From Naegleria gruberi (Eukaryota), in the NCBI GenBank assembly GCA_000004985.1, contig GG738880.1: a stretch of 64,000 bases of DNA; one strand, given 5' to 3'. The position numbers and the translations under genes were made by a program. The notes under the pieces are model-generated. The model had not been told where the DNA came from, did not search any database, and saw only the letters and a program-made list of their open reading frames with translations. The first letter of the stretch is position 1. Each line of letters begins with the position of its first letter. Shown piece after piece: positions 11,633 through 40,722 of this stretch.

Positions 11633-12781
11633 ATGCCATCATTTGAAAGTGCCTCTGATCTCTATCAAGAAGGAAATGATTTATTCGTCGATGAAGAATA
11701 TGAAAGTGCCTTGACTAAATATTCTCAGGCTATTGAAATGGAAAAGAAGGCTGAATATTTTGAAAAACGATCAGCCTGTTATAATCAACTCGGAAATCAC
11801 AAGGCTTCATTGGAGGATGCGGAACAAGCAATTTCACTCTCACCAAATTCTTTCAATGGTCACTTGAGAAAGGGTGTTGCTTTATTCGAATTGGAACAAT
11901 ATGAACAATCTAAACAAGCATTGGAAAAGGCATTGACAATCAAGCCTGAAGACTCAAAGGCTAAAACTTGGTTGAGAAAAGCTAACGCTGAGCTTAAATC
12001 ATCCACTCCATCTTCCTCTACACCTACACCAACCACTACTACTACTCATACTCCTGTAACAACTACCACTACTACTCCACCAACTCAATCATCATCTACT
12101 TTATCAGTCGTCCCACACAAAAAGAAGATTAAATGGAATTTCTTCCAAATGGACGAATATGCAGTATTGAGTGTTATAGGATTGCAAGCAACTAAGAAGG
12201 AAGATAGACATGTTACTATCAGTGAAAATGAAGTTACAATTTCTATTACAATTCCACCACAAGAAGGAGTTCCAGCTCAAATGGGAGATGAAGATTTTAC
12301 CAAATTTGAAAGAACATTTAAATTATTTGACAGTATTAATCCATCAGAATCAAAGATTGAACAATTACCTTCAAAATGTGAAATCAAGTTGAAGAAGGTT
12401 CATCCAACTATTGAATGGCCTTCTTTTGAAGAAGTTGGAAATGTTAACAAATTTGATCCTCAATTCCAATCCTCAAGCGTTTATACTACTCAATTCGATC
12501 CAAAGAAATATCCAACCTCAAAGAAGACCGACTTTGACTCCCTTGACAAGATTGCCAAGAAGGAAGAAGAAGAAGAAAAACCAGAAGGTGATGCTGCTTT
12601 ACAAAAACTTTTCCAACAAATTTACTCGCAAGGTAACGAAGAAACCAGAAGAGCCATGATGAAGAGTTTCCAAGAAAGTGGTGGTACTGTATTATCCACC
12701 AATTGGAATGAGGTTGGTTCTAAGAAAGTTAAGGGTGAAGCCCCTCAAGGAATGGAGATGAAGTATTGGAATAAGGAATAA
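11633..12781 (+). CDS. sgt1: SGT1 homolog (HSP90 co-chaperone / SCF assembly factor) with TPR, CS and SGS domains
   Basis: The N-terminus has TPR-like helices ([43 protein letters not shown]). The middle is a Thr-rich linker followed by a CS-like segment ([19 protein letters not shown]...). The C-terminal SGS domain reads [44 protein letters not shown]. The gene is a single exon. Confidence 0.8.
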
Positions 12782-21048: not shown

Positions 21049-24000
21049 TTAATGTTTAGGATGTCTCGAATGCACCAACTGAGTCAAGCTAGCCAATTCT
21101 GATGATAGTTTAGAGGATTTGGATGTTTCTTCCAAGTTATCGGAACGAAGTTTAATCTTGTCAAGTTTTTGGTCTAACTTGCTGATTTGTTCGTCCTTCA
21201 CTTTGATTAATTTGACTATCTTTTCAGTATCGATTGATAAAGACCCTCCAGATGAAGATGATTGGTCACCATTATATTGGGCAATTTGTTTAAGGAGATA
21301 GTTAATCTTTTGCTCGCTTTCTTTTTGAAGTTTGATTTGCCTTCTTTCGTAAACAAGTTCTGTAAGACGAATATTATTTTGGAGGTTTTCAACCATTTTG
21401 TCTCTATCTTTGAGGTTAAGCTCCAGTTCCAAAATCTTTTGCTTTTTCACTTTTTCATCTTCTTTCAGTTCAATAACTTTTTCGAAATATTGTTTCAATA
21501 ACACTTTGGCTTCAGAAACAGATCCAATTTCATTGAACATAGACATGGAAAATGATTCATTATCTGCAAATCTCAACTTGTTCTGGAATTGTTCAATTGT
21601 TTCAGTCTTGTATTGGATTTCAGCATCAAGTACTTCTGTTCTTTCGTTAATCTCCTCAAGCTCTTCTTCTTCCTTTTTAATTTGATCCTTGGCTTTTTGC
21701 TCGAGCTTATCTCTGTGCTTAAGGAATTTTTCTCTTCTTTGGTGCAACACGTCGATTTGTTGTTGGAGATCGTTAATAATTTTTGCTTCAGTTTTCAAGC
21801 AATTATTACTGTTGGAAGTTCTCTTGCTCTTTAGAATCGTTTCCTTTTCAATAATTTCTCTTTCAACTTCTTCTAACTGTTTCTCAATATCAACCATTGA
21901 CTCTTGCATGAATTGATTCTTTCGTATTTTTCTCATTTCAATATCCTGCTTAGCAGTTATCATATGTTCCTTTTCTTGAATGATGGATTCTCTTCTTGCA
22001 AGCTCTTTTTCCAAAGTTTCAATAGCATCTTTCTTTGTCATATATTTTTCAATCTCCTTATCGAGCCATTCTTTTTGTTTGTCTATTTCTGTTGATGATG
22101 CTTTCATCTTGGAAGATCTTGAGAGTTGATACCTGTTCAACCGTAACTGCTGATTAACCTTTTCAACTTCTTCAGATTTCTTATCGAGAAGTGATCTTTG
22201 CTTTTGGTTTTCAATTTCCAACTCTCTAATTCTTTTTTGACTCAGCTCAGCTTGTTTTCTTAACCCAGCAATTTGTTTCAATTGAGATGAATACGATTGG
22301 TTTTGTTTTTCAGTTTCTTCCTTAATCTTATTCCTGAGAGAATCCTGTTGCGATTTCATCTTTGTAATTTCGGATTGAAGATCGTAAACTTTCTTATCAC
22401 TTTGATATTTTAACTTTGATATTCTATCTGATTCATTTGCCTTTTTTCTGAATTCTGAGAGTTGAAAATTTTGTTTCTTGAGCCTTTCTTCATAGTCAGC
22501 CTGGATTCTCTTCTTTTCCTCTTCCTTTTTTCCTTTCTCCATATCAGCTGTTTCAAGGGCAGTCATTAGTTTTTCAAGCTCCTGTTGAGTAGCAATCACT
22601 GACGATTCCATTTCAAGAATCTTCTTTTCATAATTTTCTTGGATAACCAATGATTCGTGTTCACTCTTAAGTAAGTCTCTTATCAACTCCTCTTTCAATT
22701 TAATCATTACAGTCAAGTCTTTCAAGCTTTGCTCATATTTCCTCTGTTTCTTCATGAAAATCATTTTATGTTCTTGCATTTGCTTCTCTACCATTGTCTT
22801 TTCCATTTCGATTTGGTTTTGTTGATTGTACATCATGTTCTTTTCTTTTTCTATATTCTTAATATCGTTCTCTATTTGATTAAGCTCTCCTTCAACAACA
22901 GGTGATTCCTCTCTTGGACTGTCCTCTTGTGGTGGAGGTACACTTATTGGTTGAGCCATGTTTTTACTGACAAGAACAGGCATTGGAGGAAGACTAGCAA
23001 TCCCCAGCTCTTCAGGAAGACTCTGAATATATTCACCTAATTGAGCAACCTTCTTCATTTCCAACTCCAAATCTTGTTTGAGTGCTTGAACATTTTTCTT
23101 CAACACCCAATTTGTTTTTGATAATCTCTTAATTTCTCTCATCTTTTCAGTAAATATTTTTTCATCACGTTTAAGGTCATCCCTTGCCTCTTTAACTTCC
23201 TGCTTTAATGTATCAATAACTTTGTTCTTGTCATCTTCACTTCTGTTGGAATCGGTATCAGATCCCAAACTTGAAGTGGAGTCAACTCTCTCCAATGTTA
23301 ATGAACCAGTTACATCGTTCGAAACAACAGCCTCTAAAGCAGAAATTATTTCAGAAATTTTCTCTTTTGGAATATCCAAAGAACTCCATGGGATTTTTTT
23401 AAGAATTCTAAGAACATCTTTCACTTTGTTTCTAAATGCCCTAAATCGTTGTACGTAAGAATCTCTTTCTGATTGTATCTTTGATAAATTTTCGTTAAGA
23501 TCTTCTATCTTGGTATTGGAATTTGTTAATTGTTCCTTCAACAATTTGGTTTCATCTCGTATACTATTTACATCAGAGAATCTTTGGTTGTCTTCAAATT
23601 TAAGCAAATTCTCTACAGATGGGTTAAATCCTTCTGGACTCATTCTTTGTTGCATTAAAGCAAGTTTTAGTGATTGAATTTCGTTTCTTAATTGGTCTAT
23701 TTGCATTGAATGAGGATCTATATTCACAACTGGTTTGTTCTTAATGTTTCTTGCTCTGTTGGCATATTTTAAGGTATTCACTGTTTCTTCAAAATTTGAA
23801 TCTGCTGGGGAAATACAAGCAATCATAACTGTTTTGCTGTTACCACCCAAGCTATCTTGCAATAACCTCGTAAGCTTGGAGTCTCTGTATGGAACGTGAG
23901 TTATGTGGGCCCTCTTCTTCTCGTCTCCCAAAGCACTAATCACATTACCAAGAGCCAATAATCCACAATTGATTTGAACAGCCTCTTTAAATCGAACTCC

Positions 24001-25003
24001 AACAGCTCCCGTTCTCTTTGTTCTTTCACTACCAGCCAAGTCCACTAAATGGAACTTGGCAGTCATGTATTGTTCTCCGTTTCCTGTTGAATCAGAATTT
24101 TCTCCTTTAACTCTCTGTTCAAGTAAAATAGTAAATATGGAATGTGACCTACTCGACACTTCATTCATTAATGTACTTCCTACAGTTCTATACAAGCTAC
24201 CAGTTTCCAAGCAGCCTATCATATCATCAAAACTTTGGACTAGCTCTTCTTTAATCCCCGAAAGGAATATCCCTTTTTTCTCATCTTCTCTTATTTGAAT
24301 CAATTTTGATGATGTTGTCGGAGAAAGTAGATCCTTAATAGTTTCATTATAAATTTCAAGAAAAGAAACTTTCACAACACACTCCATATCTGTTCTTTGT
24401 TTTACAGTTTCGAATATTTGTTGAATAACTCTCGGTATAACTCCTAGTTCTTCATCTAATAAATTTGATGAATTTGCTGTTCCCATTGTAAATGTTTTCC
24501 CCGAGCCCTAATAAAAGTTAGATCCAAAAAGTTCATAAAGATAACATACTGTTTGACCATAGGCAAGAACTGTTGCATTATATCCTTGAAAAAGTCCATC
24601 CACTAATGATTTTACTGAAGAGTCATAAATTGCTGACTAAATTTTGATGATGAAAATATTGTATTTTGTCGTTACATACCTGCATTGAATTTTGCCCGAA
24701 TACATAATCAAAGGCAAATGTTCTATCCTTTCCTATTATTATTTGTTTTTGATCTATTGTTACACATTCTCTACTCTTCTCCAATTTTTCCTTTGGAAGC
24801 ATGGGTCTTATCCTCACTGCAACTTTTACAGTTAACTCGGGAGATGATGTATTAATATTATTCATTGATGATTGTAAGATTGATCCTTCCCCTGAAGAAG
24901 GAAATCTATCACTTGTATTCACTGGAATAAATAAAGGAGTACCACTTCCACTATTATTCAATGATCCATTTAAACTTGCATTATTTCCACCACTGAAACT
25001 CAT
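21049..25003 (-). CDS. Kinesin-4 family (chromokinesin/KIF4-like) motor protein with 3 exons (24680-25003, 24550-24636, 21049-24507; about 1289 aa)
   Basis: The N-terminal motor spans three exons. The first exon encodes VKVAVRIRPMLPKE...FAFDYVFGQNSMQ. After a 43-nt intron the second exon encodes SAIYDSSVKSLVDGLFQGYNATVLAYGQT. After a 42-nt intron the third exon begins GSGKTFTMG (P-loop), followed by SSRSHSIFT and VDLAGSERTKRTG. The kinesin-4-diagnostic LLALGNVISALGD...HVPYRDSKLTRLLQDSLGGNS is present. About 900 aa of coiled-coil stalk follow. Both short introns have GTATGT donors and TAG acceptors. Confidence 0.85.
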
Positions 25004-25206: not shown

Positions 25207-28200
25207 CTAATTTGGTGTTTGAGAATGTGTGAATAATATAGAATTAAACTTACTCTTAATAAATGATTGTCCAAATTCATACCAATATTTGTATACACCC
25301 TTAGCAAATATTCTTCTATTTGATTTTATAGAATGATCACTATTTTGTGAATCATCTATTGATGATCTTGTTGAAATAGTCTTCATTGAAATTGAAGGAA
25401 CAGAAATAAAAATCTTATTGTCAGCATCCTCTTGCATATAGAGTGCATACTTGGAAATGATAATATTTTCATCAACATCTTCTTGATATCTTAAACATAA
25501 ACTTCTCCACACAATATCACTGTAATTAAGATGTATTATCATTGTGTAAATATTTGGCATATAAAATATTGAAAAACTAACCTTGTAGCAATTCTATAAA
25601 AGTCATAATTAACCTCACTAAGAGAACACAAGTCTTTTGCATCAAGAAACATGCACACATAGATAAGAGCCTCTGGAGGAAGTTCTATCATGACACGTGA
25701 TGTATCTTCTTCACAATAGGTCCATTCAGCATCATCATCAAGAACATCATTCTCTGTATCGTCCTCCTCTTCTGCACCAACATTGGTACTGGTTAATTGT
25801 TGCAATCCTCTTACATTACAATTCGAATAATTCTGACTCATAATTTGTCTCAATAAATTGTCATCAGATAAGCGATTAGGGTTGAAATGCCTACTCATAG
25901 TACTCAGGGAACTACATGAGGCCTTACTCTCGGTTTCAATTGCTTTATCTAATACGGATGGTGCTCTTACAGGTTCTTCCTTCTTCTTCTTTCTTTTTTG
26001 GCTTAATTGATTGTTAAATCTTTGACCGAGAGGATATTGTTGTGCTAGTTGTTCCTCTTCTCTTTTAGCTCTTGGTGTTAAGAAACCAAAGATTGATGTT
26101 TTCTTTTTAGTTTGAGCAAGAGCTTTCTTCAATGATCTTTTTTCTTCCTTAGAAATTAGATCATCAAAAATATTCTTCTCCTCATTTTGTGAAAGTACAA
26201 ACTCTGAGAAGTCTTCAGAATCAGTACCATTCTTAAATTCATAGGATAGAGACTTTTCATTCATCTTTCGTTTCTTTTCTACTCCTTCCATGAATTGATC
26301 GAATGCAATATCATCAGAATCTTCTTCTAATTTCTTTTGATGTGAGTTTAATCTCTCTTGAATATAATTTGTTGCAAATTGATAAAATCGATTTTTGGCG
26401 TTCAATTTCAAATCGTCTGGAACCTCTTTACCAAAAGCAATTGAAAGATCATGTTTCTGAATCTTTTCTAAAAATACATCATATTTGTTAAATATTAAGA
26501 AAACTGGTACATCAGCAAAGAAGGTCGAATTAATAATCTCATTAAATACAAGCAAACTTTCCATCATTCTATTAGTTTTTCTATCTTCGTAGAGAACTTG
26601 ATTATATTCACTTAGAGCCACAACAAACAAAACAGCGCTCACTTCATCAAAGCCATTAATCCATTTCTTTCTTTCACTTCTTTGTGAACCCATATTTACA
26701 ACTCTAATTGGTTTATACATGACAAGTGTTTTGGAGCTTTGAGAATCTTTCATAATCTTATTCTCAAATATTGGTTCTAATAGACTTGTGTTTTGTGGTA
26801 AAATATCATCAAGTTCCATTGTAAATTTAGTATCTTGAAATCTGTCTTGTATAGTATAAGATACAACATAATCTTTCTTTGGTTTAGAAGTCTGTTGATC
26901 TAAGAATGATCCATCAATACTCATTGAACAATCAAAAGAATTAACCGCATTAAGATCATTTGGAGATTGATCTGATCTTTCTACACCCAGTCTAACTTTC
27001 TCATTTTCACAATTATAGTAATAGTAGGTTGTTGTCTTTCTAATTTTAATTGGAACATGAAAAAGAGACTCAACTAAACCAGTTGTTCTCATTCTAATTC
27101 TCAAAATATCATTAATTGTTGGGACATAATATGGATCAGCAATTCTATCTATACTTGTAAACCAATATCTTGCACTTTCCATATAATCAAAACACATTTC
27201 ATTTCCCATTTCATAAATTTCTTGAATTTGAGGAACTTCGTACCATAAATATTTAATCTTTTCCGCAACTGACTTGGTCATTACCCAATAATTATCCTTA
27301 TTCATATTACTAACAGCGTCCAAAACAGCATTAATACTATCAATTAAATAATAATCATGCATTGGATCTAATAATTGAAAATTGATAGCGTGATAAATGT
27401 TTGTGCAACCATCAACAAGTCCATACATTGCTAAAAGTGTATTTCTATGAATGGGATAAATAAAAAGTCGTCTATATTCTGGATTTCTATAACTGTTTGA
27501 AAAATCTTCTCTTAAATCAATTGAATCTCTTAATGATTCATCAAATATAATACATTGCAAGTCAGTAGGAGTACTCAAATCAAAACTATGTGTTCTTGGT
27601 GATTTGGGAATTGTGGAGGTATTTCTTGTTGATAAAAACTCTCCATTCGAATTTACACTATTTACACTTAAGTAATTGGAATTCACGCTCGAAGAAATAG
27701 GTGAATTTTGATGAATATTTGATAAACTTGAGTTCAAACTAGAAGAAATACTTCCTTGTTGTAGAAAGTTATTAGATGAAGTATTCGAATAACTATTATT
27801 ATATACAAGATGAGGTGTTGTACTCAAAGAGGAACCTGAAATTGAGTTGGATACCACTTGTTGATGTGAAGAATTTGTTGTTGTTGTTGTTGATGAAGTG
27901 CCTCCATTGTATTTCCGTTTTATGGGATACCAATAATTGAGCGATTTAACTATTGTTGATTTTCCTCCTAATTATTTTCATATTCGAAATTAATTGATTG
28001 TTAATAGATAATTTGATGTTTCGAATATATATTTGTTTAATAATAATTTCAAGTTTCGTCATGATATTGTTTAAAAGATCATTCATATAATATTGCGTAG
28101 ATGATGATGATGAATCCGTTAAATGTTATATTTTGTGGTAAATTTAATATATATGAAAAAACACAACACGGGTGTAAATACAACAATAAAAATTTCAACT

Positions 28201-28865: not shown

Positions 28866-30416
28866 TTACAAACCTGGAATGGCTTTTGGACCCAAGCCAG
28901 GTAAGAAACTTGAAGATGATGTAAAAGTGTCCTTGGCTGAAGGTTGATGGGAATTTTGAGTAAGCATTTGGTAAGGAAGAGGTAATTCATGAACATTATA
29001 CTTGTCATCCATCTTATCACCAGGTCTATTTCTCACCCAAAACTTGGTTGAGTGGTCATTACTTCCAGAACATAAAATATGACCGAATGGATGCCATGCA
29101 ATATCCCAAACAGCACTTGAGTGAGCTTCCTTAATTTTAGCCTGTGGAGATTCATTACCAACCATCCAAAACATAATATTACCATCATAAGAACCACTGG
29201 CAAATAAGTTTTCATGGAATGGATGCCAGGCAAGACAAGTAACTTCTCTGTTATGCCCTTTGAATGTTTGGAATTCCTTAAGATATCTAATATCATATAA
29301 TTTGATAAGTTGATCCTTTGAACAACTCATAACCCAGTTACCGTTCATATTCCACTTGATATTGAAAATAGTATTTTTGTGACCGTGGAGAGTAGCAACA
29401 CATGAAGCAGATCTAGCATCCCATAATTTTACAAGGTAATCCTTAGCACCACTAGCAATTAAACTATTTCTTGGATGCCAATCACAACATCTGACGTCAC
29501 TACCGTGACCACTTAAAGTATTTTCAACTGTTGCTCTTTCAAAATCCCAAACCTTAATAGTACCATCATCGGAACAACTGCAAAACTTTGAATCAGATGG
29601 TGCAAATCCTAAATCTCTAATACATTCCTCGTGTCCTTTTTTAATTTCTAAAACGTTATTCATATTAGGTTGCCAATATTTAATAGCTCCTGCGTTATCA
29701 GCACTTGCCATGAAAGTATCGTTGTGATTCCAAACCATGGCTCTGATTGGATCGTTGTGTGCTAATTGAATAGTTTCAAAGTTGAAGGCCATACCATTCC
29801 ACAATGTGAATTGTCCACTTGATATTCCTGTCAACAATCTTCTACCATCAGGTGTCCAAGAAACAACGTGAACAGCATATCTTTCCTTGTTTGTACTTGA
29901 GTGTTCAAAATTACTTGTAATACATGTTGTTGGATTTTGTTTATAGGCTGATGGTGGTAATAAGTTAATTTCATAAGCAGGATGTGGAGGTATATACATT
30001 AAATCTCTCTTTGATCTTTCATAAATTCTGCTTCTAGTTAATTGGATGACTGTAGGACTGTAATCGATAAACTTTCTGTCAATAGCCTTTCTCATACGTT
30101 TACCATCATACACCATTTTACCTTGTTGTTGTTGAATAAAATTTGGTGCTACTGGACCATCGTCTTGTGCAACACCGTGTTGTTGCAAGGCTTGTTGTTG
30201 TTGTTGTGCAAAAGCAGCAATACCTCCTTGTGGAGCATTATTTTCTCCTCCATTTGGTTGTTGTTGTTGCTGTTGATTATTATTATTATTTCTAGGTATC
30301 CTATTATTATTGTTATTTCTATTATTTTGATTATTGTTATTGTAGGGATGGTGACGCTGCTGATTGTTGTGGCCCATCCTTCCACCGCCACCATGTTGTT
30401 GGTGTTGTTGATTCAT
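28866..30416 (-). CDS. WDR33 / Pfs2-type WD40 pre-mRNA 3'-end processing (polyadenylation) factor
   Basis: After a Q/N-rich N-terminus, the WD repeats align closely with WDR33: [90 protein letters not shown], and [28 protein letters not shown]. The ATG is at 30416. The 3' end may include a spliced exon: a GTTTGT sits at the stop. Confidence 0.8.
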
Positions 30417-30969: not shown

Positions 30970-33900
30970 ATGAATTCTAGTGAAAATGTTGTTACTGATC
31001 AAAAAACAACATCATCAACATCACCCAATACTACTCAACCAACAACAACAACATCAATAACAAATTCATCAAGTCAGAGAGCAAACGAATCTTTTAGAAA
31101 AATGAAAGAAAGATTATCTTTGACATCAGATGAAATGGTTGGTGATTGTGTTGATGAAGAAGAGGAAGAATATTCACTACAATCGATGGAACAAAATATC
31201 AATAGTTTACATACAATAATTGATAAATTAACAACAATATTTAAACCACTTTTTAATGAAACAAGTAATCAAACTAATACTTCATTAACGATAACAAAAA
31301 TTGAACCACAATTCGGACCACTGCAAAAACAAACACAAGTTACAATTAACTTTTCAATACCTTTTGTTGTTCAACAAACAAATACAACAACAAATAACAA
31401 AACAAATGTTATTCCACTAGATAGATATAAAGTAATTTTTGGTAAATTCATAATAGAACCTCAAAATATTCAATCAAATACTTTACAATTTTTAACACCA
31501 AGTATTGATAATAATCAAAATAGTTATGAAATTAAAGTACTAGATTTAGAAAGTTATCAATTCATTTCATCAAATCCTGCAATTTCATTCACTTTTTTAA
31601 CAGATCCTAAAGAAGAAGCATTAACAGATTTAAATAGAGTAAAGGATTTATTTAATCAAAAAAAGAATGAACTTTTACACGAGAAGACATATTCTAATGG
31701 ACAAACAGCATTACATGTTGCTTTTAAATTGGCTCAATTTGAAATTGTAAAATATTTAGTATTACAATCAGATGAATTTGATTGTCTTGTACAACAAGAT
31801 GATAATGGACATACACCATTTGACGTTGCCATGAACAACAAACATTATTTATTCTTAACAAAAATTATTGATTGGTTGAAACAAGTTGTGAAAAACAAAT
31901 TACAATTCCAACAAAATCAATTTTTAAATATGCCATCAAATAATATCAATAGTGGAGCTTCTCCAATAAGTGTACCATCTCTCAATTTGAGTAACAATTC
32001 AACACCATTAACATCAAGTCAAAGTTTTATTAGTAGTAATAGTAATACATTGGCATCTCCAATTGGTGGAAGTTATTCTGCTAGAGATTTAAACTCTGTT
32101 ACATCAGCAACATCATCTGCTCGTAGTTCATTAGATAGACATCGTGGATCATTTGATAAGCGTCGTTCTAGAGATTTGACAATTACTACAAGTTTAACTC
32201 CAAAGAAAATCAACTCACCAACTTCAAATTTTGATTCAAGTGTTTCTGAAAATTTTGGCACTCCAAACAATCACCAAACTTCAGATGCAACTCCAAATTC
32301 TGCACCTCATATTTCATCTTCAGTTCCTACACAATCTCCTCTCACAAATTTCAGAACTACAACTGATATTTCTGATGATATTGTTACAAATGGAATTAAT
32401 TCAAGAAAATCAAATCATAAGCGTGTATTAACAAATTTGGGTAGTCAAAAGAATCAATCAACTCCTGTGATGCTCGATGATGAAAGTACAGAAGATGATT
32501 CTGACTCAGCAGCAATTTATTCTGCTGTTACCCCTGTAAAATTACAAGCAACTGTTGAAGAAAGGGAAGAAGAAGCCATTTCAAATTTAATTGTCAAGTA
32601 TAGACTGGATCAATACAGTGATATTTACAAGGAAATGTTGGATAGAAATGATCCTCTAGTTCATAAAATAACTAGAAAGATTGAAATGAGAGATGATTGG
32701 GATAATTCTTTCAAAAAGAGAAAGGAAACTATGCTTGTTCCGCTCACACGTGAAAAATCCTACTTGGAAGAAGTTCAATTGGAGAGAAGAGCCAATCCAT
32801 TCAAGCCAAGTATTTATTATGATGAAGAGGTTGATGATGGATATACTGAAGGAACCTTGTTGCTTTCTCAATTCCATGAAGACAGTTCAAAATTGTTACC
32901 TTACAATGTTTTGAGTACAATTCAAACCATGTCTTCTGATTTTATCATTGTTTCTTTCAAATCATTGGATACTAAAGTTAGAGATGTAGTTTTTAACGTT
33001 GATGATTTGAAACAAGTTAGTTATGAAATTGATATTCTTGATAGAAAGAAAATTGATGATAAAAGGAAGAAAGCACAAAAGAGTAATGAATCACCAACAG
33101 CTGCTGATGAATTGGACGTTTCTCTAGTTCTTCCAGGTAAGCAAAAATTACTTGCCATAGAAGGATTACAAGAACCAGAGTTCTTGTTGGCTACCTTTGA
33201 AGATGTTTTCCCATGTGAAGATCAACAAAAAGTAACTAATGACGATACCAAGTTATTATACTCTGATTTTGAATGGGAACCTTCACACATTGATCCAACA
33301 AGTCAATATCTTTTCGAATTGAAAGGTTTTGAATTGGATGTAAATAAGAAACTTGATATTCCTCTTGAGGAAGCATACTTTGTAACTGTTTCACTCTATA
33401 CTTATACTGATAAGGCATTTAAAAAGATATCAGAAGATGTAGAATTCAAGATTGAAACACATCCAAAAGAAGAAGATACTATCACCAAATTGAAAGCTAT
33501 GTTTTCTGTACAAAAGAATTTTGAATCCAAAGTTGTTGCCTTGTTTAAATTTTTTAGAAGATTCAAAGGTGAATTGACTGAAACTTTGAACGATTTGTAT
33601 ACTCAAAAAGCAGAAAAGGTAAAACAAGGTGATGTTAAAAAGTACTTTACAAAAAATGAAAAATTATGCACATTCCCTGGAGTTGCCAGTTCAATTTCAA
33701 TCTTTGGTTGGTCTGCAATTCATTTACAAGATTGTTTGAAGAGGTCAGAGGTTGTTTTAAGTGATAGTTTGTACATTCTCCCAAGAAAATGTAGAACAGG
33801 AGATGCTATTTTATTGGATAGTTATCTAGATGTTTATACTAATGCAGTTGAACGTGAATCAAAACCATTGATGAAAAAGACTATCTATGGTAAATTGTCA

Positions 33901-36900
33901 TTCATATTCAAAGAATTACCAAATATTCCTCCTATTCCTCGCCATTACCACCCAAATTCTCACGAGTTGGTTATTAAACTCGATTCCAAACATTTGAGAG
34001 TACAACAAATTCCAAACTTGGAAAATAGTTTATTGACTAAGATTTTACCATTATCTAGTGAACTTATTATTTATCCAAAGGAATTGAATTTAACAAAGAA
34101 AGATTTTAAGAATATCACAGTTAAAGTTTCATTCCTAAATGAGCAAAAGAAACCAATGAATGTATTTTATCCAAAGTTTTCCAGAAATCCTGAAAGAAAT
34201 TCTAGAGTTCCTTATAGATTTACATCTGTTTCTGTTGGTAATAGACAACCAGAATTTTGTGATGAGCTGAAGTGTATTTTACCATGCAGAATAACGAATT
34301 ATAGTTTACAATTTGAATTCTTAAACGTTCTCCATAAGGAAAATTTAATTTTGAAAAATCATCGTGAAGATGTCCAAAGAATTGGTTATGCCATTGTTCA
34401 TTTGGCTGAAGCTGCATTGAATGGAACCGAAATGAAGTTAGAAATTTACACAGAGAAAAAGGAAGCCAATGTTGTTAAAACTGAAAAAGTTGATGGTTAC
34501 TTTACATTCCAACTCTATTCAAGATCAATTGCATTCCCTACTGATAATAATTTAATGTCATTCTTTGATACTTTGGATTTATTCCAAAAGAGAAATTATT
34601 TCAAAAAGATGAGTAGAAAACGTGATTCTGATGATGACTTTTTCCTAATTTCTCCTGACCTTTCTCTTGTTTTACCAAATCTCAAATTGCTTGGAGTACA
34701 ACACATGGCCTTTGCTCCAGTTATTTTGAATCAACTTTTCCTATTGTATTTTGATATTGGTACAGATGATGAAGACACTCAACATGAAATATTTGTTGCA
34801 ATTATTGATATGATTGACAAGTATAGAACAGAACATCGTACAATAGTTCCTGGTTGGATTAAATTCCAATTTACAAGTGTTTTCCCTGATTATATGATGG
34901 AGAGATTGCCAACTATTGCCAAGTCTGTCAAGTACATTTTGGAAAGAGATGATTATGACAGTAAGATTATTAAGAATGCCAATTACTTATTCTCTATTTT
35001 ACTTAAAGCTATGGTTGTTCATATGGACTTTAGAAAGAACAAGATGCAAAACGCTGATCATGATTTTAGTGAAACTTTCTATGAAACTATTAACACAATT
35101 ACAACCAAGTCTTTTAGAAATTTATTGAAGAGAAATATTTCCAAGACTAGACCAGTTACTATTATCAATACTACAGTCATTTTTGCTCAGTTCTTAAAGG
35201 TTTTGCTTACAATTTTGGACAAACCTTATGTAATGAAACTAATTGCATCATTTGTAGAGTTAATTCCATTGATTACTCCAACCGAATCTGAAATGGGAAA
35301 GAATAAGAACACCATATTGGAATGTATTGCTAATTTGCAAGTAATCACTTACAAGGAAGTATTTTCCTACGATAATTATCTTCAATTATTTGTTCCAGAA
35401 TCTATTGAAAAAATTTTACAAAATGATAGTCTTCCACCATTGGATGATACCCACTTCTTATTCTCATCCTTTGTTGATACAGTAATCAAGAATTTGGTAA
35501 ATCCACTCAAGGAAACTAGAAATCATACTGCTCTAGTTTTTAGAGAATTCCTCTACAAGCTCATGTCTACCTCTAGGAATTCTACATTGGAAGAAATACC
35601 AGAAGCATCCGACAGAATCAACTTAATGACCTTTGAGTTTGTTGATAAATTCTTGGGCATTCTTCAAGATTGGAGATCTGAAGTTGAAAAGAGTGTAAAT
35701 TCCAATAAGAAAAAGATGAATGAATGTAAAAAGAGAAAGATTATGATTCAACAACAATTGGCTGCCAAGAAGGAATCTCAAAGAGCTGCTAGTGAAAGCT
35801 CCCTTGCTGGTATTCAATTGGAAATGTTGAACAAGGAAATTATTGTTTTGGAAACTAACTTTAAGCAATTCGAAGGAATGATCAACAAAACTAAAGAAGA
35901 ATTGAAGAAAGATATGAAGGAGTCATTCAAAGAAAAGAGACAATTGATAACTTGTGTTTTCCATATTTTGAAGAATACTGAACAAAGATATATCAAGAAA
36001 TGGTTGAAACAAATTAATATTACAAAGAGATTACAATTCTTGCAAATGATGCAATTAATTCTTCAATCATTTGAATATCAAAGTGAAGCATATTACAAGG
36101 TTTTCTATGAACATTATTACAATACTCAAGTGAAAGTCAAGAATAAGGTTAATGCTGATTTGTCTAGTAACAACTCAACTTCAACTGCCACTGTCTCTGC
36201 TAATGCCTCCTCTGCTTCTTCTCTTCTTAGCAATCCACAAGCACTTCAAGCATCTACCAATATTTCTTCCATCTCTCAAAGTAATGAAGCATTATCAACA
36301 GATACTCTTGCAGATATTGGTACCTATGTTGCAGGTGATATTGAAGAAATTACTTCTCCAAAAACAGCAACATCAGAACTTGTTAAAGCTGGTGCTTCAT
36401 TGATGAAGAAGAAGAATAAGCAAGGATTTTTCTCAAAGCTCATTCCTAACTTTGTTAGTTCAGATCAAAATCTCAAGACTGATATCAAAGAACTTAGAAC
36501 ATTATCAAAGGCAAGATTATTAGATTCTGCTGATAAGACAAAGTCTGTCAAATTGGAAACTAACTCATCTATCTATGTTAAGAAGTGTGTTAATATTGAA
36601 CAAAATTGGTCAAGAGAAGTCTCTAACTATGTTTTTGAATTATTAGTGTTCTGTATTGAGGAAATTATGACAGAAAAGACTGATCATCACTTGGATTCTG
36701 CAAGTATTTTGGAAAATGTTGTCAAGATTTTCCTTACCTTCTTACGTATTAATCAACCAGAAGATGTATTGATCAATGTTTTGATCTATTTGAAATGCTT
36801 CTTTGCTAATCATTACAAACAAGTATTTGACGAGGAAGCAAATGCTCAATATCCAACATTATTCTGTGAATGTTTAATGATGCACTGTAATTCATCTATT

Positions 36901-38934
36901 CCAGAGGTCAGAAGCCATGCTACTGCCTGTCTCTATCTTCTTATCAGATACATGTATATTATTAATTATAATACCATTTTGAAACCACAAGTTTTAACAA
37001 CACTTGCCCTTTCAAAGACCTTACAAAAATATGTTTCTCCAGTTGTTAACATTACTTATTTAAAGTCAGCAATTGATGCTATTGGAAGATATGCTTATTT
37101 GGACCCTGATCCACCAATTTCAGTTCAACAAACATTGAATAATCAAACAACTCAATCAACAGCTGCAACTGAAACAAAGACCTTGTCAACTCTTGATTCA
37201 TTCTTTAGAAAAATGGAACAAAGAGTTAAATTATTATCTGCTATCAAGGAAAGAAAGGAAGAATCAACATTTGCAGAAGAAGTCAATACTCAAGTTTGTA
37301 AAAAGTTGCAATCTTTATTACACGACACAACAAGTGTTAAATCAACTCTTGCCCTTGAAGATATTCACAAAACTGAAGATTTATTCTTGAGAATTTCACA
37401 AGTCTATACCAGAATTCCAGAGTTAAGATTTGTTTGGTTGAATCAATTGGCTGCTAATCATTACAAGAATGGTCAATATTTGGAAGCAAGTCAATGTTAT
37501 ATGACAATTTTATCACTTGTTTTTGATCATTTGAAATCTATTAATTCTCCAATTCTTGCTGGTATTTCAGTTCAATCATTCTTTGCCATTTCGCCACTCA
37601 AGAGAAAGACAAGCGCTGATAAGTTAACAAGTGCAAATCCTAACAATAGAAATGCAATGAATGATTGCTTTATTTCAAATCAAGCAGTTGAATTTACTGA
37701 ATATGGTATTATTCAATTATTATCCAAAGCTGTGGAATGCTTAGAATTAGCAGAATACTTTGAAAGTTGTATTGTTTTAGAAAGACTTTCACTTCCATTC
37801 TTAGAAAGATCTAATGATTGGATAAGACTTTCAAATGCCTATCATCATTTACAAGATTTATGTGATCGTTTGAAGAAACCAGATCGTTTAGAACCATACT
37901 ATTACAAGATTGAATTGGTGAACTTCCCACCAGAAAGATCTCAACCTAATCATATTTACAAAATGCCAAAACTTTTCAAATTATTCAAGATGAACAAGTG
38001 GGTTCAAGAAAAGTTTGGTTCTCCATTCGTAAATGAACAAATGGAAGTTGTAAGTGGTGCAAAGAAGGTTGATATCGATCCAAACAAACGTTACATCTTC
38101 TTGACTCCTGTTAAACCATTAACAAAGAGTGTCAAACCAATAATTATTGGAAATCAAAAGATTTCTAAATATGAAGGAAATATCAGAAAGTTCTATTATG
38201 AATCAGCTTATGGGAAAAAGACTGAAGTTGTAACTGAAGCTTACAAGAAGAAAGTTATTATTACATGTATGGATTATTTCCCTAACATGAAAACACGTCT
38301 CCAGATTGAATCTGAGGAGGAAGTCATCTTGACACCAATTGAAGCTGCCATTGAAAATATTGAATCTCAAATTTCCAAACTTAGAGAAGCTCTTCAAATC
38401 CCAGGAGACGATGAAATTGATATTTCACAAATCAAGACAGGTAATAATATTGACTTGGCAAATCTTCAACTTGTTTTACAAGGTTCTATCAAGGCAACAG
38501 TTCAAGGCGGTCCAGCAAGTATTGTTGAAGGTTTCCTCAAGATGGATCAACGTCCACTCTATGCAGTTGAGCACATTATTAACTTGAACAGAAAGTGTCA
38601 TGTATTTTTAAAGTTATGTGAAGAGGCTGTTAAGGTAGAAAATCAACTCATGGATAAGGCAACTGAAAGAGCTTTCCATCAAGAAATGGAAAAGGGTTTA
38701 ATCGAAACTCAGCAATTATTCGCAGAACATTTAACACCACTCGATGAAATGTTTTATTCACAATCTCAAAATTACAACAATTATTCGCCTGAAGATTCAG
38801 AAATGAATAGAGGAAGCGTTATTGGAGACATTCCAATGATTCGTAATTTTAGATTCTCAATGCCACAGCATGAACTAACACAATTAGGTATGAACTATGA
38901 AGAAGAATCAGATGATAGAGATTTCATTCAATAA
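30970..38934 (+). CDS. DOCK-family (DHR-1/DHR-2) Rho-GTPase guanine-nucleotide exchange factor, 2654 aa, single exon, with an N-terminal ankyrin-like segment
   Basis: The C-terminal DHR-2 region aligns with DOCK180-type proteins: ELRFVWLNQLAANHYKNGQYLEASQCYMT; VILTPIEAAIENIESQISKL (compare VLTPIEVAIEDMKKK); LQLVLQGSIKATVQGGP (compare LQMVLQGSVGATVNQGP). The N-terminus has an ankyrin-like GQTALHVAFKLAQFEIVKYLV...DDNGHTPFDVAMNNKH. The frame is an uninterrupted 7.96 kb ORF. Confidence 0.8.
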   Translation: MNSSENVVTDQKTTSSTSPNTTQPTTTTSITNSSSQRANESFRKMKERLSLTSDEMVGDCVDEEEEEYSLQSMEQNINSLHTIIDKLTTIFKPLFNETSNQTNTSLTITKIEPQFGPLQKQTQVTINFSIPFVVQQTNTTTNNKTNVIPLDRYKVIFGKFIIEPQNIQSNTLQFLTPSIDNNQNSYEIKVLDLESYQFISSNPAISFTFLTDPKEEALTDLNRVKDLFNQKKNELLHEKTYSNGQTALHVAFKLAQFEIVKYLVLQSDEFDCLVQQDDNGHTPFDVAMNNKHYLFLTKIIDWLKQVVKNKLQFQQNQFLNMPSNNINSGASPISVPSLNLSNNSTPLTSSQSFISSNSNTLASPIGGSYSARDLNSVTSATSSARSSLDRHRGSFDKRRSRDLTITTSLTPKKINSPTSNFDSSVSENFGTPNNHQTSDATPNSAPHISSSVPTQSPLTNFRTTTDISDDIVTNGINSRKSNHKRVLTNLGSQKNQSTPVMLDDESTEDDSDSAAIYSAVTPVKLQATVEEREEEAISNLIVKYRLDQYSDIYKEMLDRNDPLVHKITRKIEMRDDWDNSFKKRKETMLVPLTREKSYLEEVQLERRANPFKPSIYYDEEVDDGYTEGTLLLSQFHEDSSKLLPYNVLSTIQTMSSDFIIVSFKSLDTKVRDVVFNVDDLKQVSYEIDILDRKKIDDKRKKAQKSNESPTAADELDVSLVLPGKQKLLAIEGLQEPEFLLATFEDVFPCEDQQKVTNDDTKLLYSDFEWEPSHIDPTSQYLFELKGFELDVNKKLDIPLEEAYFVTVSLYTYTDKAFKKISEDVEFKIETHPKEEDTITKLKAMFSVQKNFESKVVALFKFFRRFKGELTETLNDLYTQKAEKVKQGDVKKYFTKNEKLCTFPGVASSISIFGWSAIHLQDCLKRSEVVLSDSLYILPRKCRTGDAILLDSYLDVYTNAVERESKPLMKKTIYGKLSFIFKELPNIPPIPRHYHPNSHELVIKLDSKHLRVQQIPNLENSLLTKILPLSSELIIYPKELNLTKKDFKNITVKVSFLNEQKKPMNVFYPKFSRNPERNSRVPYRFTSVSVGNRQPEFCDELKCILPCRITNYSLQFEFLNVLHKENLILKNHREDVQRIGYAIVHLAEAALNGTEMKLEIYTEKKEANVVKTEKVDGYFTFQLYSRSIAFPTDNNLMSFFDTLDLFQKRNYFKKMSRKRDSDDDFFLISPDLSLVLPNLKLLGVQHMAFAPVILNQLFLLYFDIGTDDEDTQHEIFVAIIDMIDKYRTEHRTIVPGWIKFQFTSVFPDYMMERLPTIAKSVKYILERDDYDSKIIKNANYLFSILLKAMVVHMDFRKNKMQNADHDFSETFYETINTITTKSFRNLLKRNISKTRPVTIINTTVIFAQFLKVLLTILDKPYVMKLIASFVELIPLITPTESEMGKNKNTILECIANLQVITYKEVFSYDNYLQLFVPESIEKILQNDSLPPLDDTHFLFSSFVDTVIKNLVNPLKETRNHTALVFREFLYKLMSTSRNSTLEEIPEASDRINLMTFEFVDKFLGILQDWRSEVEKSVNSNKKKMNECKKRKIMIQQQLAAKKESQRAASESSLAGIQLEMLNKEIIVLETNFKQFEGMINKTKEELKKDMKESFKEKRQLITCVFHILKNTEQRYIKKWLKQINITKRLQFLQMMQLILQSFEYQSEAYYKVFYEHYYNTQVKVKNKVNADLSSNNSTSTATVSANASSASSLLSNPQALQASTNISSISQSNEALSTDTLADIGTYVAGDIEEITSPKTATSELVKAGASLMKKKNKQGFFSKLIPNFVSSDQNLKTDIKELRTLSKARLLDSADKTKSVKLETNSSIYVKKCVNIEQNWSREVSNYVFELLVFCIEEIMTEKTDHHLDSASILENVVKIFLTFLRINQPEDVLINVLIYLKCFFANHYKQVFDEEANAQYPTLFCECLMMHCNSSIPEVRSHATACLYLLIRYMYIINYNTILKPQVLTTLALSKTLQKYVSPVVNITYLKSAIDAIGRYAYLDPDPPISVQQTLNNQTTQSTAATETKTLSTLDSFFRKMEQRVKLLSAIKERKEESTFAEEVNTQVCKKLQSLLHDTTSVKSTLALEDIHKTEDLFLRISQVYTRIPELRFVWLNQLAANHYKNGQYLEASQCYMTILSLVFDHLKSINSPILAGISVQSFFAISPLKRKTSADKLTSANPNNRNAMNDCFISNQAVEFTEYGIIQLLSKAVECLELAEYFESCIVLERLSLPFLERSNDWIRLSNAYHHLQDLCDRLKKPDRLEPYYYKIELVNFPPERSQPNHIYKMPKLFKLFKMNKWVQEKFGSPFVNEQMEVVSGAKKVDIDPNKRYIFLTPVKPLTKSVKPIIIGNQKISKYEGNIRKFYYESAYGKKTEVVTEAYKKKVIITCMDYFPNMKTRLQIESEEEVILTPIEAAIENIESQISKLREALQIPGDDEIDISQIKTGNNIDLANLQLVLQGSIKATVQGGPASIVEGFLKMDQRPLYAVEHIINLNRKCHVFLKLCEEAVKVENQLMDKATERAFHQEMEKGLIETQQLFAEHLTPLDEMFYSQSQNYNNYSPEDSEMNRGSVIGDIPMIRNFRFSMPQHELTQLGMNYEEESDDRDFIQ

Positions 38935-39450: not shown

Positions 39451-39500
39451 NNNNNNNNNNNNNNNNNNNNNNNNNNNNNNNNNNNNNNNNNNNNNNNNNN
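39451..39500. other. Assembly gap (50 N)
   Basis: A run of n. Confidence 1.
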
Positions 39501-40722
39501 TCTCAATATAACGATGATATTGATGATGAAAATTATGAAAAGAAATTAGAAAATGCATTTAATAGTGAAAAATCATTACTTTTATCTAATAGTAATAATA
39601 ATATTTCCTATTATGATAATAATGGTAAATTCTATTAATAATAATTATAATGAAATTCCAATTTTAGTTGAAAAGAAAAGATTTTCAAATTTTACAAAAA
39701 TATTTCAATCAGAATCAATGAAGAGAGTTAGAAGATGGATAGCATTTATTGTTGGTTGTTTTATAATGACTGCAAGTGGTACTCCTTATTCATTTTCATC
39801 TATTAGTCCTTCTCTAAAAAAGTAAGTTTTTAATTTTATTTAAATATAATTTATTTTAATTATTATTATTTTTTTTAATTTAATTTTATAATATTATGAA
39901 AATAGAACATTTTTATTATCACAAAGTGAAGGTATGTTACAATTATATTGTTTTATTAAAATAATAATATTTCTATAAATAGTAAATTTAATAGGAACAT
40001 CAGCCAATTTAGGATCTAATTTTAGTTTTATATTTTCATTTGTAAATGATATATTTGGATCTAGAATTAGTAGTTTATTAGCAGGAGCATGTTTATTTTT
40101 TTCATATTTTTCCATGTCCTTAATTGTAACTGGTAATTTACCATTTATAGATCCATATATAGCATTTTGTTTTTTAATGTTTTTAATGGGAAGTGCATGT
40201 GGAGGTGGTTTTATATCTTCAATTTCTACTTCAATGAAGAATTTTCCAGAAAGAAATAGAGGTCTAGTTAGTATGTATTTAATTTTATTTAATGTTTATT
40301 TAATATTTTTATTTTTTTATTTATTTAATTTTATATTTAAATATATAAGTTGGAGTATTATCATCTTGTTATGGTATTAGTAGTGCAATATATTCAGGTG
40401 CATATTTATATATATTTCAACAAGATTTAGAAATTTATTTAATATTTTGTGCTGTATTAGGAGGTGTTGTAGTAATGATAATGGGTCCTATATTTTTAGA
40501 TAGTAAGGCTAATTCACTTACTATAAATAGTAATAATAATAAGAATAATCAAATTGATAATAATAATCAAATTGAAAATGAAAATGAATCATCCAATGTA
40601 GATAACGTAGATAATTTACAAGATGATAATGTAAATAATAATTTAAAAGAAAATAATTTAAAAGAAAATGAAACTTTAAAAGAAAGAATTACCAAAATAG
40701 AATTAAAATTAAAAGAAAATGA
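39501..40722 (+). pseudogene. Second, partial and frameshifted copy of the nodulin-like MFS transporter 5' region (exons 1-3 plus the start of exon 4), bounded by gaps on both sides
   Basis: It matches 2462-3702 almost base for base. A 1-nt insertion (aataatgGtaaattc at ~39624, against aataatgtaaattc at 2581) shifts exon 1 into a stop (YDNNGKFY*). Other differences are a tcc/tct and an aaa/att substitution, a 9-nt in-frame deletion in the Asn/Asp-rich loop, and intron indels. The copy could be a real paralogous pseudogene, an allelic haplotig, or a low-quality contig end. Confidence 0.45.
39501..40722. repeat. Copy B of the about 1.22 kb segmental duplication (copy A is 2462-3702)
   Basis: See copy A. 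Confidence 0.85.

What the first reader, a model, noticed from the sequence alone, without database searches (positions are those of the whole stretch)
30970..38934. Intronless 8-kb DOCK-family GEF with an N-terminal ankyrin-like segment
A 2654-codon uninterrupted ORF is notable in a genome where most neighbouring genes carry introns. The C-terminal 600 aa are unmistakably DHR-2: YIFLTPVKPL..., ILTPIEAAIENI, LQLVLQGSIKATVQGGP. The N-terminus has no SH3 domain (as in DOCK-A/B) and no PH domain (as in zizimin/DOCK-D). Instead it has a Thr-rich tract and an ankyrin-repeat-like pair (GQTALHVAFKLAQFEIVKYLV...DDNGHTPFDVAMNNKH). This may represent a lineage-specific DOCK subclass.
Basis: partly seen in the sequence, partly recalled or inferred. 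Interest (0 to 1): 0.5.

Follow-up and report, generated by a model that had tools for sequence, protein, structure and literature searches.

The report
Naegleria DOCK exchange factor with TIG-ankyrin head
This is a real, single-exon 2654-residue Naegleria gruberi gene for a DOCK-type activator of Rho-family GTPases. Its core is conventional, but it carries an extra N-terminal TIG (immunoglobulin-like) domain plus ankyrin repeats, found here only in its Naegleria/Willaertia orthologues. That makes it a modest lineage-specific variant, not a new kind of protein.

Summary
ORF 30970..38934 (+) is 2654 codons and every quoted motif is present. The window is a Naegleria gruberi scaffold end, and the protein is already deposited as "dedicator of cytokinesis protein-like protein".

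The core is a complete zizimin-type (DOCK-C/D-like) exchange factor:
- C2-like region, about aa 777-1000.
- DHR-1, aa 1030-1179.
- ARM/TPR region.
- DHR-2 with lobes A, B and C, aa 2137-2580, with the catalytic valine conserved (V2511).
- It is collinear with human DOCK6. No SH3 or PH domain was detected.

This helix-TIG-ANK head is as conserved as DHR-1 among four orthologues (N. gruberi, N. fowleri, a metagenome sequence and Willaertia). It is absent from all 149 other DOCK relatives examined, including paralogues in the same species.

In a DHR-2 tree the protein sits in a clade with 98% support whose only named members are Heterolobosea, outside the metazoan DOCK-C and DOCK-D clades.

The head most likely acts as a dimerisation or partner-docking regulatory module; that is inference. 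This is a new variant of a known kind, of moderate-low interest.

The parts
30970..38934 (+). Complete single-exon coding sequence, 2654 aa plus stop. Identical to the NCBI N. gruberi 'dedicator of cytokinesis protein-like protein'.
30970..31164 (+). Poorly conserved Thr/Ser-rich N-terminal tail (aa 1-65; 16-21% identity to orthologues).
31165..31254 (+). Conserved N-terminal helix (aa 66-95; SLHTIIDKL invariant in four taxa). Role unknown.
31282..31599 (+). IPT/TIG-like beta-sandwich (aa 105-210).
31606..31929 (+). Ankyrin-repeat domain: two canonical repeats plus a capping helix pair, ending in a long conserved basic helix (aa 213-320).
31930..32529 (+). Low-complexity Ser/Thr/Asn-rich linker (aa 321-520). 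Poorly conserved (23-31%) but stays in frame in all four taxa.
32530..33297 (+). Conserved region of unassigned fold (aa 521-776; 54-76% identity; motif RANPFKPSIYYDEEVDD). No Pfam or PDB sequence hit.
33298..33969 (+). Beta-rich, C2-like region upstream of DHR-1 (aa 777-1000). It sits where the DHR3-C2 of other DOCKs lies. Low-confidence assignment.
   Evidence: AF2 strands at pLDDT 70-81 within a poor overall model. Foldseek hits DOCK8 and DOCK180 DHR-1 and other C2 domains, E from 5.6e-4. Weak collinear match to DOCK6 aa 275-412. Aligns with paralogue P0017 aa 389-593, E 4e-5.
34057..34506 (+). DHR-1 (DOCK-C2) domain, aa 1030-1179.
   Evidence: PF14429 1.9e-14, 54.4 bits (GA 33.6) on the subsequence. 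DOCK8 DHR-1 7clx 1.6e-9 with the profile. Hit in all three orthologues.
34507..37239 (+). ARM/TPR solenoid between DHR-1 and DHR-2 (aa 1180-2090), with a low-complexity insert at about aa 1721-1800.
   Evidence: Collinear profile matches to DOCK6 aa 932-1024, 1255-1326 and 1385-1526. Precomputed PF28208, named TPR_DOCK9.
37378..38709 (+). DHR-2 catalytic domain, aa 2137-2580: lobe A 2137-2302, lobe B 2367-2434, lobe C 2492-2579.
   Evidence: Pfam lobe A 2.2e-29 and lobe C 4.3e-16; lobe B 4.7e-07. PDB DOCK6 1.6e-48, DOCK9 5.8e-30, DOCK10 7e-28. 79-80% identity to orthologues.
38500..38502 (+). Codon of Val2511, the predicted nucleotide-sensor valine of the alpha10 insert (LQGSIKATVQGGP).
   Evidence: Aligned with DOCK8 LQGSVGATVNQGP and DOCK7/6 LQGSVGxTVNQGP. 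Position. The valine is described as invariant and essential in PMC10152721.

Best explanation
The gene encodes a catalytically competent zizimin-type (DOCK-C/D-like) guanine-nucleotide exchange factor for Rac/Cdc42-like Rho GTPases of Naegleria gruberi.

Shown:
- From about aa 600 to the C-terminus the protein has the standard DOCK layout: C2-like region, DHR-1, ARM/TPR solenoid, and a three-lobed DHR-2 with the sensor valine.
- On this core sits an N-terminal addition of about 520 residues: a conserved helix, an IPT/TIG beta-sandwich, an ankyrin-repeat domain ending in a conserved basic helix, and a roughly 200-residue disordered linker.
- This addition is specific to one orthologue group of vahlkampfiid Heterolobosea (Naegleria and Willaertia).

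Inferred mechanism:
- DHR-2 lobes B and C bind the GTPase, and Val2511 expels Mg2+/GDP, as in DOCK9.
- Lobe A dimerises the protein.
- DHR-1 and the upstream C2 place it on phosphoinositide-containing membrane.
- The tethered TIG-ANK head takes the role that SH3/ELMO plays in DOCK-A/B and PH plays in DOCK-D. It would act as a protein-protein module that reinforces dimerisation (as TIG domains often do) and/or docks an upstream partner, so controlling where and when the GEF is active.
For: - Domain content: (DHR-2 lobes A/B/C, DHR-1, Ank_2 above the cut-off, TIG just below it).
- Collinearity with full-length DOCK6.
- Sensor valine conserved: with its role given in PMC10152721.
- Single polypeptide: the frame stays open from the TIG-ANK head through the poorly conserved linker into the DHR-1 region in four taxa.
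- Domain-like conservation: ANK 65-75% and TIG 40-55% identity, against flanking tail and linker at 16-31% and DHR-1 at 57-71%.
- Lineage restriction: a TIG-ANK profile and an ankyrin consensus hit only P0001-P0004 among 153 DOCK relatives. Nine nearest long relatives, including the N. gruberi paralogue XP_002672113 and a Willaertia paralogue, show no Ank, TIG, PH or SH3.
- Size of the addition: the paralogue aligns significantly from its aa 389 to aa 753 here, and only suggestively (E 5.5) from its aa 95 to aa 604 here. That leaves an extension of about 500 aa.
- Precedents for the inferred role: TIG domains are described as a promiscuous dimerisation module, and BCAP/BANK1 carry DBB(TIG)-ANK (PMC7128310). 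The N-terminal regions of DOCK6 and DOCK9 suppress GEF activity (PMC10152721).
Against: - No biochemical data exist. GEF activity, substrate and any role of the TIG-ANK head are inferred.
- TIG is below Pfam's gathering score (18.3 vs 20.9 bits) and rests on a model built from only four sequences.
- The model of aa 521-1010 is poor (pLDDT 41.6). A cryptic domain there, even a divergent PH, is not strictly excluded.
- Only the best 150 of 662 DOCK representatives could be inspected, and many are fragments lacking N-termini. Absence of TIG-ANK elsewhere is therefore not proven.
- The tree is neighbour-joining with 50 bootstraps, on DHR-2 only, without DOCK-A/B sequences or named Dictyostelium discoideum Doc/Ziz sequences.
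Confidence: 0.75

Rival explanations
1. It is an ordinary DOCK-C (DOCK6/7/8-type) orthologue. The 'ankyrin-like' segment is a chance match in a low-complexity N-terminus and has no functional meaning.
For: The best PDB matches are DOCK6/7/8. The whole-protein Ank_2 score is barely above threshold (28.0 vs 27.3), and two orthologues score just below it. No accessory SH3 or PH is present, as in DOCK-C.
Confidence: 0.04
2. The long ORF is a fusion artefact, from assembly or read-through, of two genes: a small TIG-ANK protein and a separate DOCK gene starting near aa 520.
For: The two parts are joined by a roughly 200-residue low-complexity linker that is poorly conserved. The Willaertia annotation shows that gene models in this group are unreliable, because it splits the orthologue. 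The scaffold contains gaps and a duplicated end.
Against: No gap lies inside the ORF. The linker stays open and in frame in N. gruberi, N. fowleri, an independent metagenome contig and Willaertia. The Willaertia split falls after the ARM region, not between ANK and the core: its P0004 model carries TIG, ANK and DHR-1 together. In AT-rich DNA, 200 codons free of stops in four diverged lineages is not expected without coding constraint.
Confidence: 0.05
3. The protein acts mainly as a scaffold. Either the DHR-2 has lost exchange activity, or the TIG-ANK head has a function unrelated to GEF control. One possibility is a CAMTA-like Ca2+/calmodulin-responsive module using the basic helix after the ankyrins.
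For: Some organisms keep DOCK proteins without having Rho-family GTPases, which suggests non-GEF roles (PMC5499878). The TIG-ANK order followed by a conserved basic amphipathic helix (aa 293-319; W302/V306/L311 with K304/K308/K310, read) recalls the TIG-ANK-calmodulin-binding order of CAMTA (PMC8591267).
Against: The sensor valine and surrounding alpha10 motif are intact. DHR-2 is the best-conserved part of the protein, at 79-80% identity. N. gruberi has many Rho GTPases (PMC5499878). No CG-1 or IQ family was detected. The calmodulin idea rests on a pattern read by eye, with no test.
Confidence: 0.12

Closest known systems
Metazoan DOCK-C (DOCK6/7/8, 'zizimin-related')
   Same: It is collinear with full-length human DOCK6 from the C2 region upstream of DHR-1 through to the end of DHR-2. 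DOCK8, DOCK7 and DOCK6 are the best lobe-C matches, with the same alpha10 motif LQGSxxxTVxxGP. There is no SH3 and no PH.
   Different: It carries an extra N-terminal helix-TIG-ANK-linker of about 520 aa. In total it is about 600 aa longer than DOCK6 (2654 vs 2053 aa), also through low-complexity inserts. Its DHR-2 branches outside the metazoan DOCK-C clade.
Metazoan DOCK-D (DOCK9/10/11, zizimins)
   Same: The DHR-2 similarity is about as strong as to DOCK6 (DOCK9 120 bits vs 125 bits for the DOCK6 DHR-2 stretch). The ARM region carries the precomputed family PF28208, named TPR_DOCK9.
   Different: No PH domain is detected. It lies outside the DOCK-D clade in the tree. The accessory module is TIG-ANK instead.
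Heterolobosean DOCK paralogues (N. gruberi XP_002672113 = P0017; Willaertia KAL9653663 = P0012)
   Same: They share the 98%-supported DHR-2 clade. The C2, DHR-1 and DHR-2 core is collinear.
   Different: The paralogues show no Ank or TIG signal. P0017 aligns with this protein only from about aa 600-750 onward.
TIG-ANK modules of BCAP/BANK1/Dof (DBB-ANK) and CAMTA (CG-1-TIG-ANK-IQ)
   Same: The order is the same: an IPT/TIG beta-sandwich directly followed by ankyrin repeats. The CAMTA1 TIG (2cxk) and BCAP DBB (6sws) are among the fold matches. In BCAP the module drives dimerisation (PMC7128310).
   Different: There is no TIR, CG-1 or IQ domain. Sequence identity to these TIG domains is only 9-15%, so common descent of the pair is not shown. 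Here the module is attached to a Rho-GEF.

Membership tests
DOCK (CZH) family of Rho GEFs | C-terminal DHR-2 catalytic domain with lobes A, B and C | tested here: met
   PF06920 2.2e-29 and PF20421 4.3e-16; PF20422 4.7e-07 on the subsequence; PDB DOCK6/9/10/7/8 hits
DOCK (CZH) family of Rho GEFs | DHR-1 (C2-like) domain upstream of DHR-2 | tested here: met
   PF14429 1.9e-14, 54.4 bits vs GA 33.6, aa 1030-1179; DOCK8 DHR-1 1.6e-9 with the profile. A whole-protein scan missed it.
DOCK (CZH) family of Rho GEFs | Invariant nucleotide-sensor valine in the alpha10 insert of lobe C | tested here: met
   Val2511 in LQGSIKATVQGGP aligns with the TV of DOCK8/7/6 LQGSVGxTVNQGP; definition from PMC10152721
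DOCK (CZH) family of Rho GEFs | Second C2 (DHR3-C2) preceding DHR-1 | tested here: inconclusive
   The beta-rich aa 777-1000 gives C2 and DOCK DHR-1 fold hits, E from 5.6e-4. The model has mean pLDDT 41.6, and the sequence match to DOCK6 aa 275-412 is not significant.
DOCK (CZH) family of Rho GEFs | Nucleotide-exchange activity on Rac/Cdc42-type GTPases | not testable with these tools
   Needs a biochemical assay
DOCK-A/B subfamilies | N-terminal SH3 domain and ELMO-binding helices, and close DHR-2 similarity to DOCK1-5 | tested here: not met
   No SH3 family at E<=1. No DOCK-A/B chain among the PDB sequence hits at E<=0.01 with the protein, or at E<=0.001 with the orthologue profile.
DOCK-D subfamily (zizimins) | PH domain N-terminal of the C2 domains, and membership of the DOCK9-11 clade | tested here: not met
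   No PH family at E<=10 in aa 511-997 or at E<=1 in the whole protein. It lies outside the 82%-supported DOCK-D clade. Caveat: aa 521-776 could not be modelled.
DOCK-C subfamily | Membership of the DOCK6-8 clade, with no accessory domain | tested here: not met
   It lies outside the 70%-supported metazoan DOCK-C clade and carries TIG-ANK. Pakes et al. also report that non-metazoan sequences do not fall into the A-D subfamilies (PMC3620097).
Ankyrin-repeat domain | Helix-turn-helix repeats of about 33 residues matching the ANK consensus | tested here: met
IPT/TIG domain | Sequence match above Pfam PF01833's gathering score | tested here: not met
   18.3 bits vs 20.9; 16.0; Willaertia orthologue 17.2
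IPT/TIG domain | E-set immunoglobulin-like beta-sandwich fold of the IPT/TIG type | tested here: met
CAMTA transcription factors | CG-1 DNA-binding domain and IQ motifs flanking TIG-ANK | tested here: not met
   No CG-1 or IQ family was reported. Architecture definition from PMC8591267.

The most novel reading that the evidence does not exclude
The helix-TIG-ANK head would be a fourth, independently acquired class of DOCK regulatory N-terminus, alongside SH3/ELMO and PH. It would control this GEF through dimerisation or through a heterolobosean-specific partner. One speculative possibility is a Ca2+/calmodulin input through the conserved basic helix after the ankyrins, echoing the TIG-ANK-CaM-binding order of CAMTA. 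That would contradict the published generalisation that DOCKs combine C2 and DHR-2 only with SH3 or PH (PMC5499878). It would also give a handle on how an amoeboflagellate wires Rho signalling.
Probability: 0.4. Interest if true: 0.45.

Novelty: new variant of a known kind. Interest (0 to 1): 0.33.

Why it matters
DOCK exchange factors are described as architecturally conservative: C2 plus DHR-2, alone or with a single SH3 or PH domain (PMC5499878). This protein shows that a free-living amoeboflagellate lineage, which includes the pathogen N. fowleri, has attached a different protein-interaction module (TIG plus ankyrin) to an otherwise standard zizimin-type core. If the module regulates the GEF, it is an independent solution to the problem that ELMO/SH3 and PH solve in animals. 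It would also be a lineage-restricted feature of Naegleria cytoskeletal signalling. The stakes are modest, because domain accretion on signalling proteins is common in protists and the gene is already annotated as DOCK-like.

Tried and rejected
- Word-indexed homologue search with the TIG-ANK segment alone: no hit, not even to itself.
- The same search with DHR-2: only three hits. The tree therefore had to be built from unnamed representatives, labelled by two cluster look-ups.
- Two metagenome scans, with the TIG-ANK alignment and with the aa 521-1010 alignment, found no relatives. The taxonomic range could not be widened.
- AF2 on aa 521-1010 gave a poor model (pLDDT 41.6). Only the C2-like part was usable. 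The profile of that region hits nothing in the PDB by sequence. aa 521-776 remains unassigned.
- The afdb50 fold library was unavailable. I could not ask which other proteins combine TIG and ANK in this geometry.
- Literature searches found no paper describing a DOCK with ankyrin or TIG domains, and none that I could cite for Naegleria intron density.
- Rejected: DOCK-A/B affinity, because there are no hits.
- Rejected: CAMTA or BCAP membership, because there is no CG-1, IQ or TIR.
- Rejected: a chance ankyrin match.
- Rejected: gene-fusion artefact, because the frame is conserved in four taxa.
Full report
**What the window is.** Real sequence runs from 1 to 40722. N gaps lie at 997-2338 and 39451-39500, and everything from 40723 onward is N padding. 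The translated ORF is 100% identical over its full 2654 residues to an NCBI protein named [quoted passage not shown]. The window is therefore the end of a N. gruberi scaffold, and the gene is already annotated.

**Observation.** The ORF listing gives one ORF, 30970..38934 (+), of 2654 aa; the translation is. In DNA of about 32% GC, an 8-kb open frame cannot be chance. No gap falls inside the ORF. A WD40 gene is transcribed divergently, 553 bp upstream.

**Core domains.**
- A whole-protein Pfam scan finds DHR-2 lobe A (aa 2137-2302, 2.2e-29), lobe C (aa 2492-2579, 4.3e-16) and Ank_2.
- DHR-1 and lobe B were missed in that scan but are clear on subsequences. PF14429 scores 1.9e-14 and 54.4 bits at aa 1030-1179. 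PF20422 scores 4.7e-07 at aa 2367-2434. All three orthologues also score DHR-1.
- Against PDB sequences the best matches are DOCK6 (1.6e-48), DOCK9, DOCK10, DOCK8 and DOCK7. No DOCK-A/B chain reaches E 0.01.
- A profile of the four orthologues matches full-length DOCK6 collinearly. The DOCK6 segments are 557-646 (DHR-1), 1255-1326 and 1385-1526 (ARM) and 1549-2015 (DHR-2). Collinear sub-threshold stretches fall at 275-412 and 932-1024.
- The precomputed family PF28208 on this protein is named TPR_DOCK9.
- The alpha10 insert reads LQGSIKATVQGGP, against DOCK8 LQGSVGATVNQGP. The catalytic nucleotide-sensor valine is therefore conserved as Val2511. It is described as invariant and essential across the family (PMC10152721).
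- DHR-2 is the most conserved region among orthologues, at 79-80% identity.

**The N-terminus.**
- Orthologues were found in N. fowleri (P0002, 2863 aa), on an ENA metagenome contig (P0003, 2841 aa, also a single ORF) and in Willaertia magna. The Willaertia annotation splits the gene into P0004 and P0006.
- An alignment of aa 66-320 with these orthologues (A2) was used as a profile against the PDB. It hits ankyrin proteins, for example the designed 4-ANK protein at 3.8e-12.
- Scanned alone, the segment passes Pfam's curated cut-offs: Ank_2 32.0 bits against 27.3, and Ank 23.0 against 21.1.
- The AlphaFold2 model of aa 66-320 has mean pLDDT 77. It shows three elements. There is an N-terminal helix at aa 70-90. 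There is a beta-sandwich at aa 108-210. There is a helical repeat domain at aa 213-319, ending in a long helix.
- Foldseek against the PDB returns almost only IPT/TIG domains for the sandwich: EBF1/3, NF-kB p65/RelB/p50, the CAMTA1 TIG domain (TM 0.77 on the target), plexin and Met IPT, and the BCAP DBB domain.
- Pfam TIG is just below threshold: 18.3 bits against 20.9, and 17.2 bits in Willaertia.
- The accessory module is therefore helix-TIG-ANK.

Per-region identity to the three orthologues:

| Region | Identity |
|---|---|
| N-terminal tail | 16-21% |
| Helix | 54-71% |
| TIG | 40-55% |
| ANK | 65-75% |
| Linker (aa 321-520) | 23-31% |
| Next region (aa 521-776) | 54-76% |

This is the pattern expected of folded, constrained domains joined by a disordered tether. 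The linker stays in frame in all four taxa, which argues against a fusion artefact.

**Between the linker and DHR-1.**
- aa 521-776 is highly conserved but matches nothing in Pfam or in the PDB by sequence.
- The AF2 model of aa 521-1010 is poor, with pLDDT 41.6.
- Its beta-rich part, aa 777-985, has strand pLDDT of 70-81. It gives C2 and DOCK DHR-1 fold hits. This fits the DHR3-C2 that precedes DHR-1 in all DOCKs (PMC10152721).
- No PH domain was detected, but the unmodelled stretch leaves a small residual doubt.

**Phylogenetic placement and distribution of the head.**
- An exhaustive HMMER search with the C-terminal 1200 aa found 662 representatives at E<=1e-3.
- I built a neighbour-joining tree from 133 full DHR-2 regions (453 columns, 50 bootstraps).
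- The four TIG-ANK orthologues group at 100% support.
- They sit inside a 15-member clade with 98% support. Its only named members are N. gruberi, N. fowleri and Willaertia. They include the paralogues XP_002672113 (P0017) and KAL9653663 (P0012).
- Metazoan DOCK-C (21 sequences, including DOCK7-like from Antedon and DOCK7 from Trichuris) and DOCK-D (11 sequences, including DOCK9-like and DOCK11) form separate clades.
- This agrees with Pakes et al., who report that Naegleria has both Dock and Zizimin types and that the A-D subfamilies arose at the onset of Metazoa (PMC3620097).
- An HMM of the TIG-ANK segment and a consensus-ankyrin phmmer search each hit only P0001-P0004 among the 153 sequences.
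- Pfam scans of nine nearest long relatives show no Ank, TIG, PH or SH3.
- The N. gruberi paralogue aligns significantly from its aa 389 to aa 753 here (E 4e-5). It aligns suggestively from its aa 95 to aa 604 here (E 5.5). The extension in this protein is therefore about 500 residues.

**Mechanism.**
- Shown: a complete DOCK core with intact catalytic signature, plus a conserved TIG-ANK head confined to this orthologue group.
- Inferred for the core: exchange on Rac/Cdc42-like GTPases through the valine-sensor mechanism; dimerisation through lobe A; membrane targeting through the C2 domains. All are by analogy with DOCK9, DOCK2 and DOCK8 (PMC10152721).
- Inferred for the head: TIG domains are a recurrent dimerisation module, and BCAP/BANK1 combine DBB(TIG) with ankyrin repeats (PMC7128310). 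CAMTA proteins also place TIG before ankyrin repeats (PMC8591267).
- Ankyrin repeats are generic partner-binding surfaces (general knowledge).
- The N-terminal parts of DOCK6 and DOCK9 suppress GEF activity.
- The most likely role is therefore a tethered regulatory or targeting module, through dimerisation and/or partner docking.
- A calmodulin-type input through the conserved basic helix at aa 293-319 is a speculation read from the sequence only.

**Novelty and verdict.**
- The literature states that DOCKs pair C2 and DHR-2 only with SH3 or PH (PMC5499878).
- I found no paper describing a DOCK with ankyrin or TIG domains.
- On the other hand, the gene is annotated as DOCK-like and already carries a precomputed Ank_2 hit. 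Domain accretion in protist signalling proteins is also common.
- The intronless state is unremarkable.
It is a lineage-specific variant of a well-known family, of moderate-low interest.

Noticed in passing
window 39501-40722 and 2462-3686: The last 1222 bases of real sequence are a 98.7%-identical direct copy of 2462-3686. Both copies adjoin N gaps. Both lie in stretches of 16-26% GC, against 27-36% elsewhere. The ORF just beyond the upstream copy (3433-4419) has MFS / nodulin-like (NFD4_C) Pfam hits. The terminal copy has AT-rich introns and reads as a membrane protein, judged by eye only. This is either a mis-scaffolded allelic contig at the scaffold end or a recent segmental duplication.
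   Followed up: partly
window 25542-27857 (-): A 772-aa ORF gives both a G-protein alpha-subunit match (2.3e-56) and an F-box match at aa 725-758. This is either an unusual G-alpha/F-box combination or two genes or exons read through in one frame.
   Followed up: no
P0004 / P0006 (Willaertia magna ABK040_002936 and ABK040_002935): The Willaertia orthologue is annotated as two adjacent gene models. One is a 1770-aa N-terminal part (TIG, ANK, DHR-1, ARM). The other is an 863-aa C-terminal part with DHR-2. This is probably one gene split by the annotation.
   Followed up: partly
window 34057-34506 and 38068-38271: Method note. A Pfam scan of the whole 2654-aa protein reported neither DHR-1 nor DHR-2 lobe B, even at E<=1. 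Both score well above their cut-offs when the subsequence is scanned. Domain absence in very long, low-complexity-rich proteins should be checked on fragments.
   Followed up: yes
window 31846-31929 (aa 293-320) and 31204-31230 (aa 79-87): Two short elements are nearly invariant across the four orthologues and have no assigned role. One is the basic amphipathic helix after the ankyrins (YLFLTKIIDWLKQVVKNKLQFQQ), which has a 1-5-10 spacing of hydrophobic residues reminiscent of calmodulin-binding helices. The other is the N-terminal SLHTIIDKL helix.
   Followed up: no
window 21052-25003 (-) and 8154-9934 (-): The kinesin ORF (KIF21A-like domain) begins at position 97 of the motor-domain profile. 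A 126-aa ORF lies just upstream on the same strand. The Vps4/katanin-like AAA ATPase ORF likewise has a 228-aa same-strand ORF 80 bases away. Both look like intron-split genes, while SGT1 (11633-12778) and the WD40 gene (28869-30416) look intronless.
   Followed up: no
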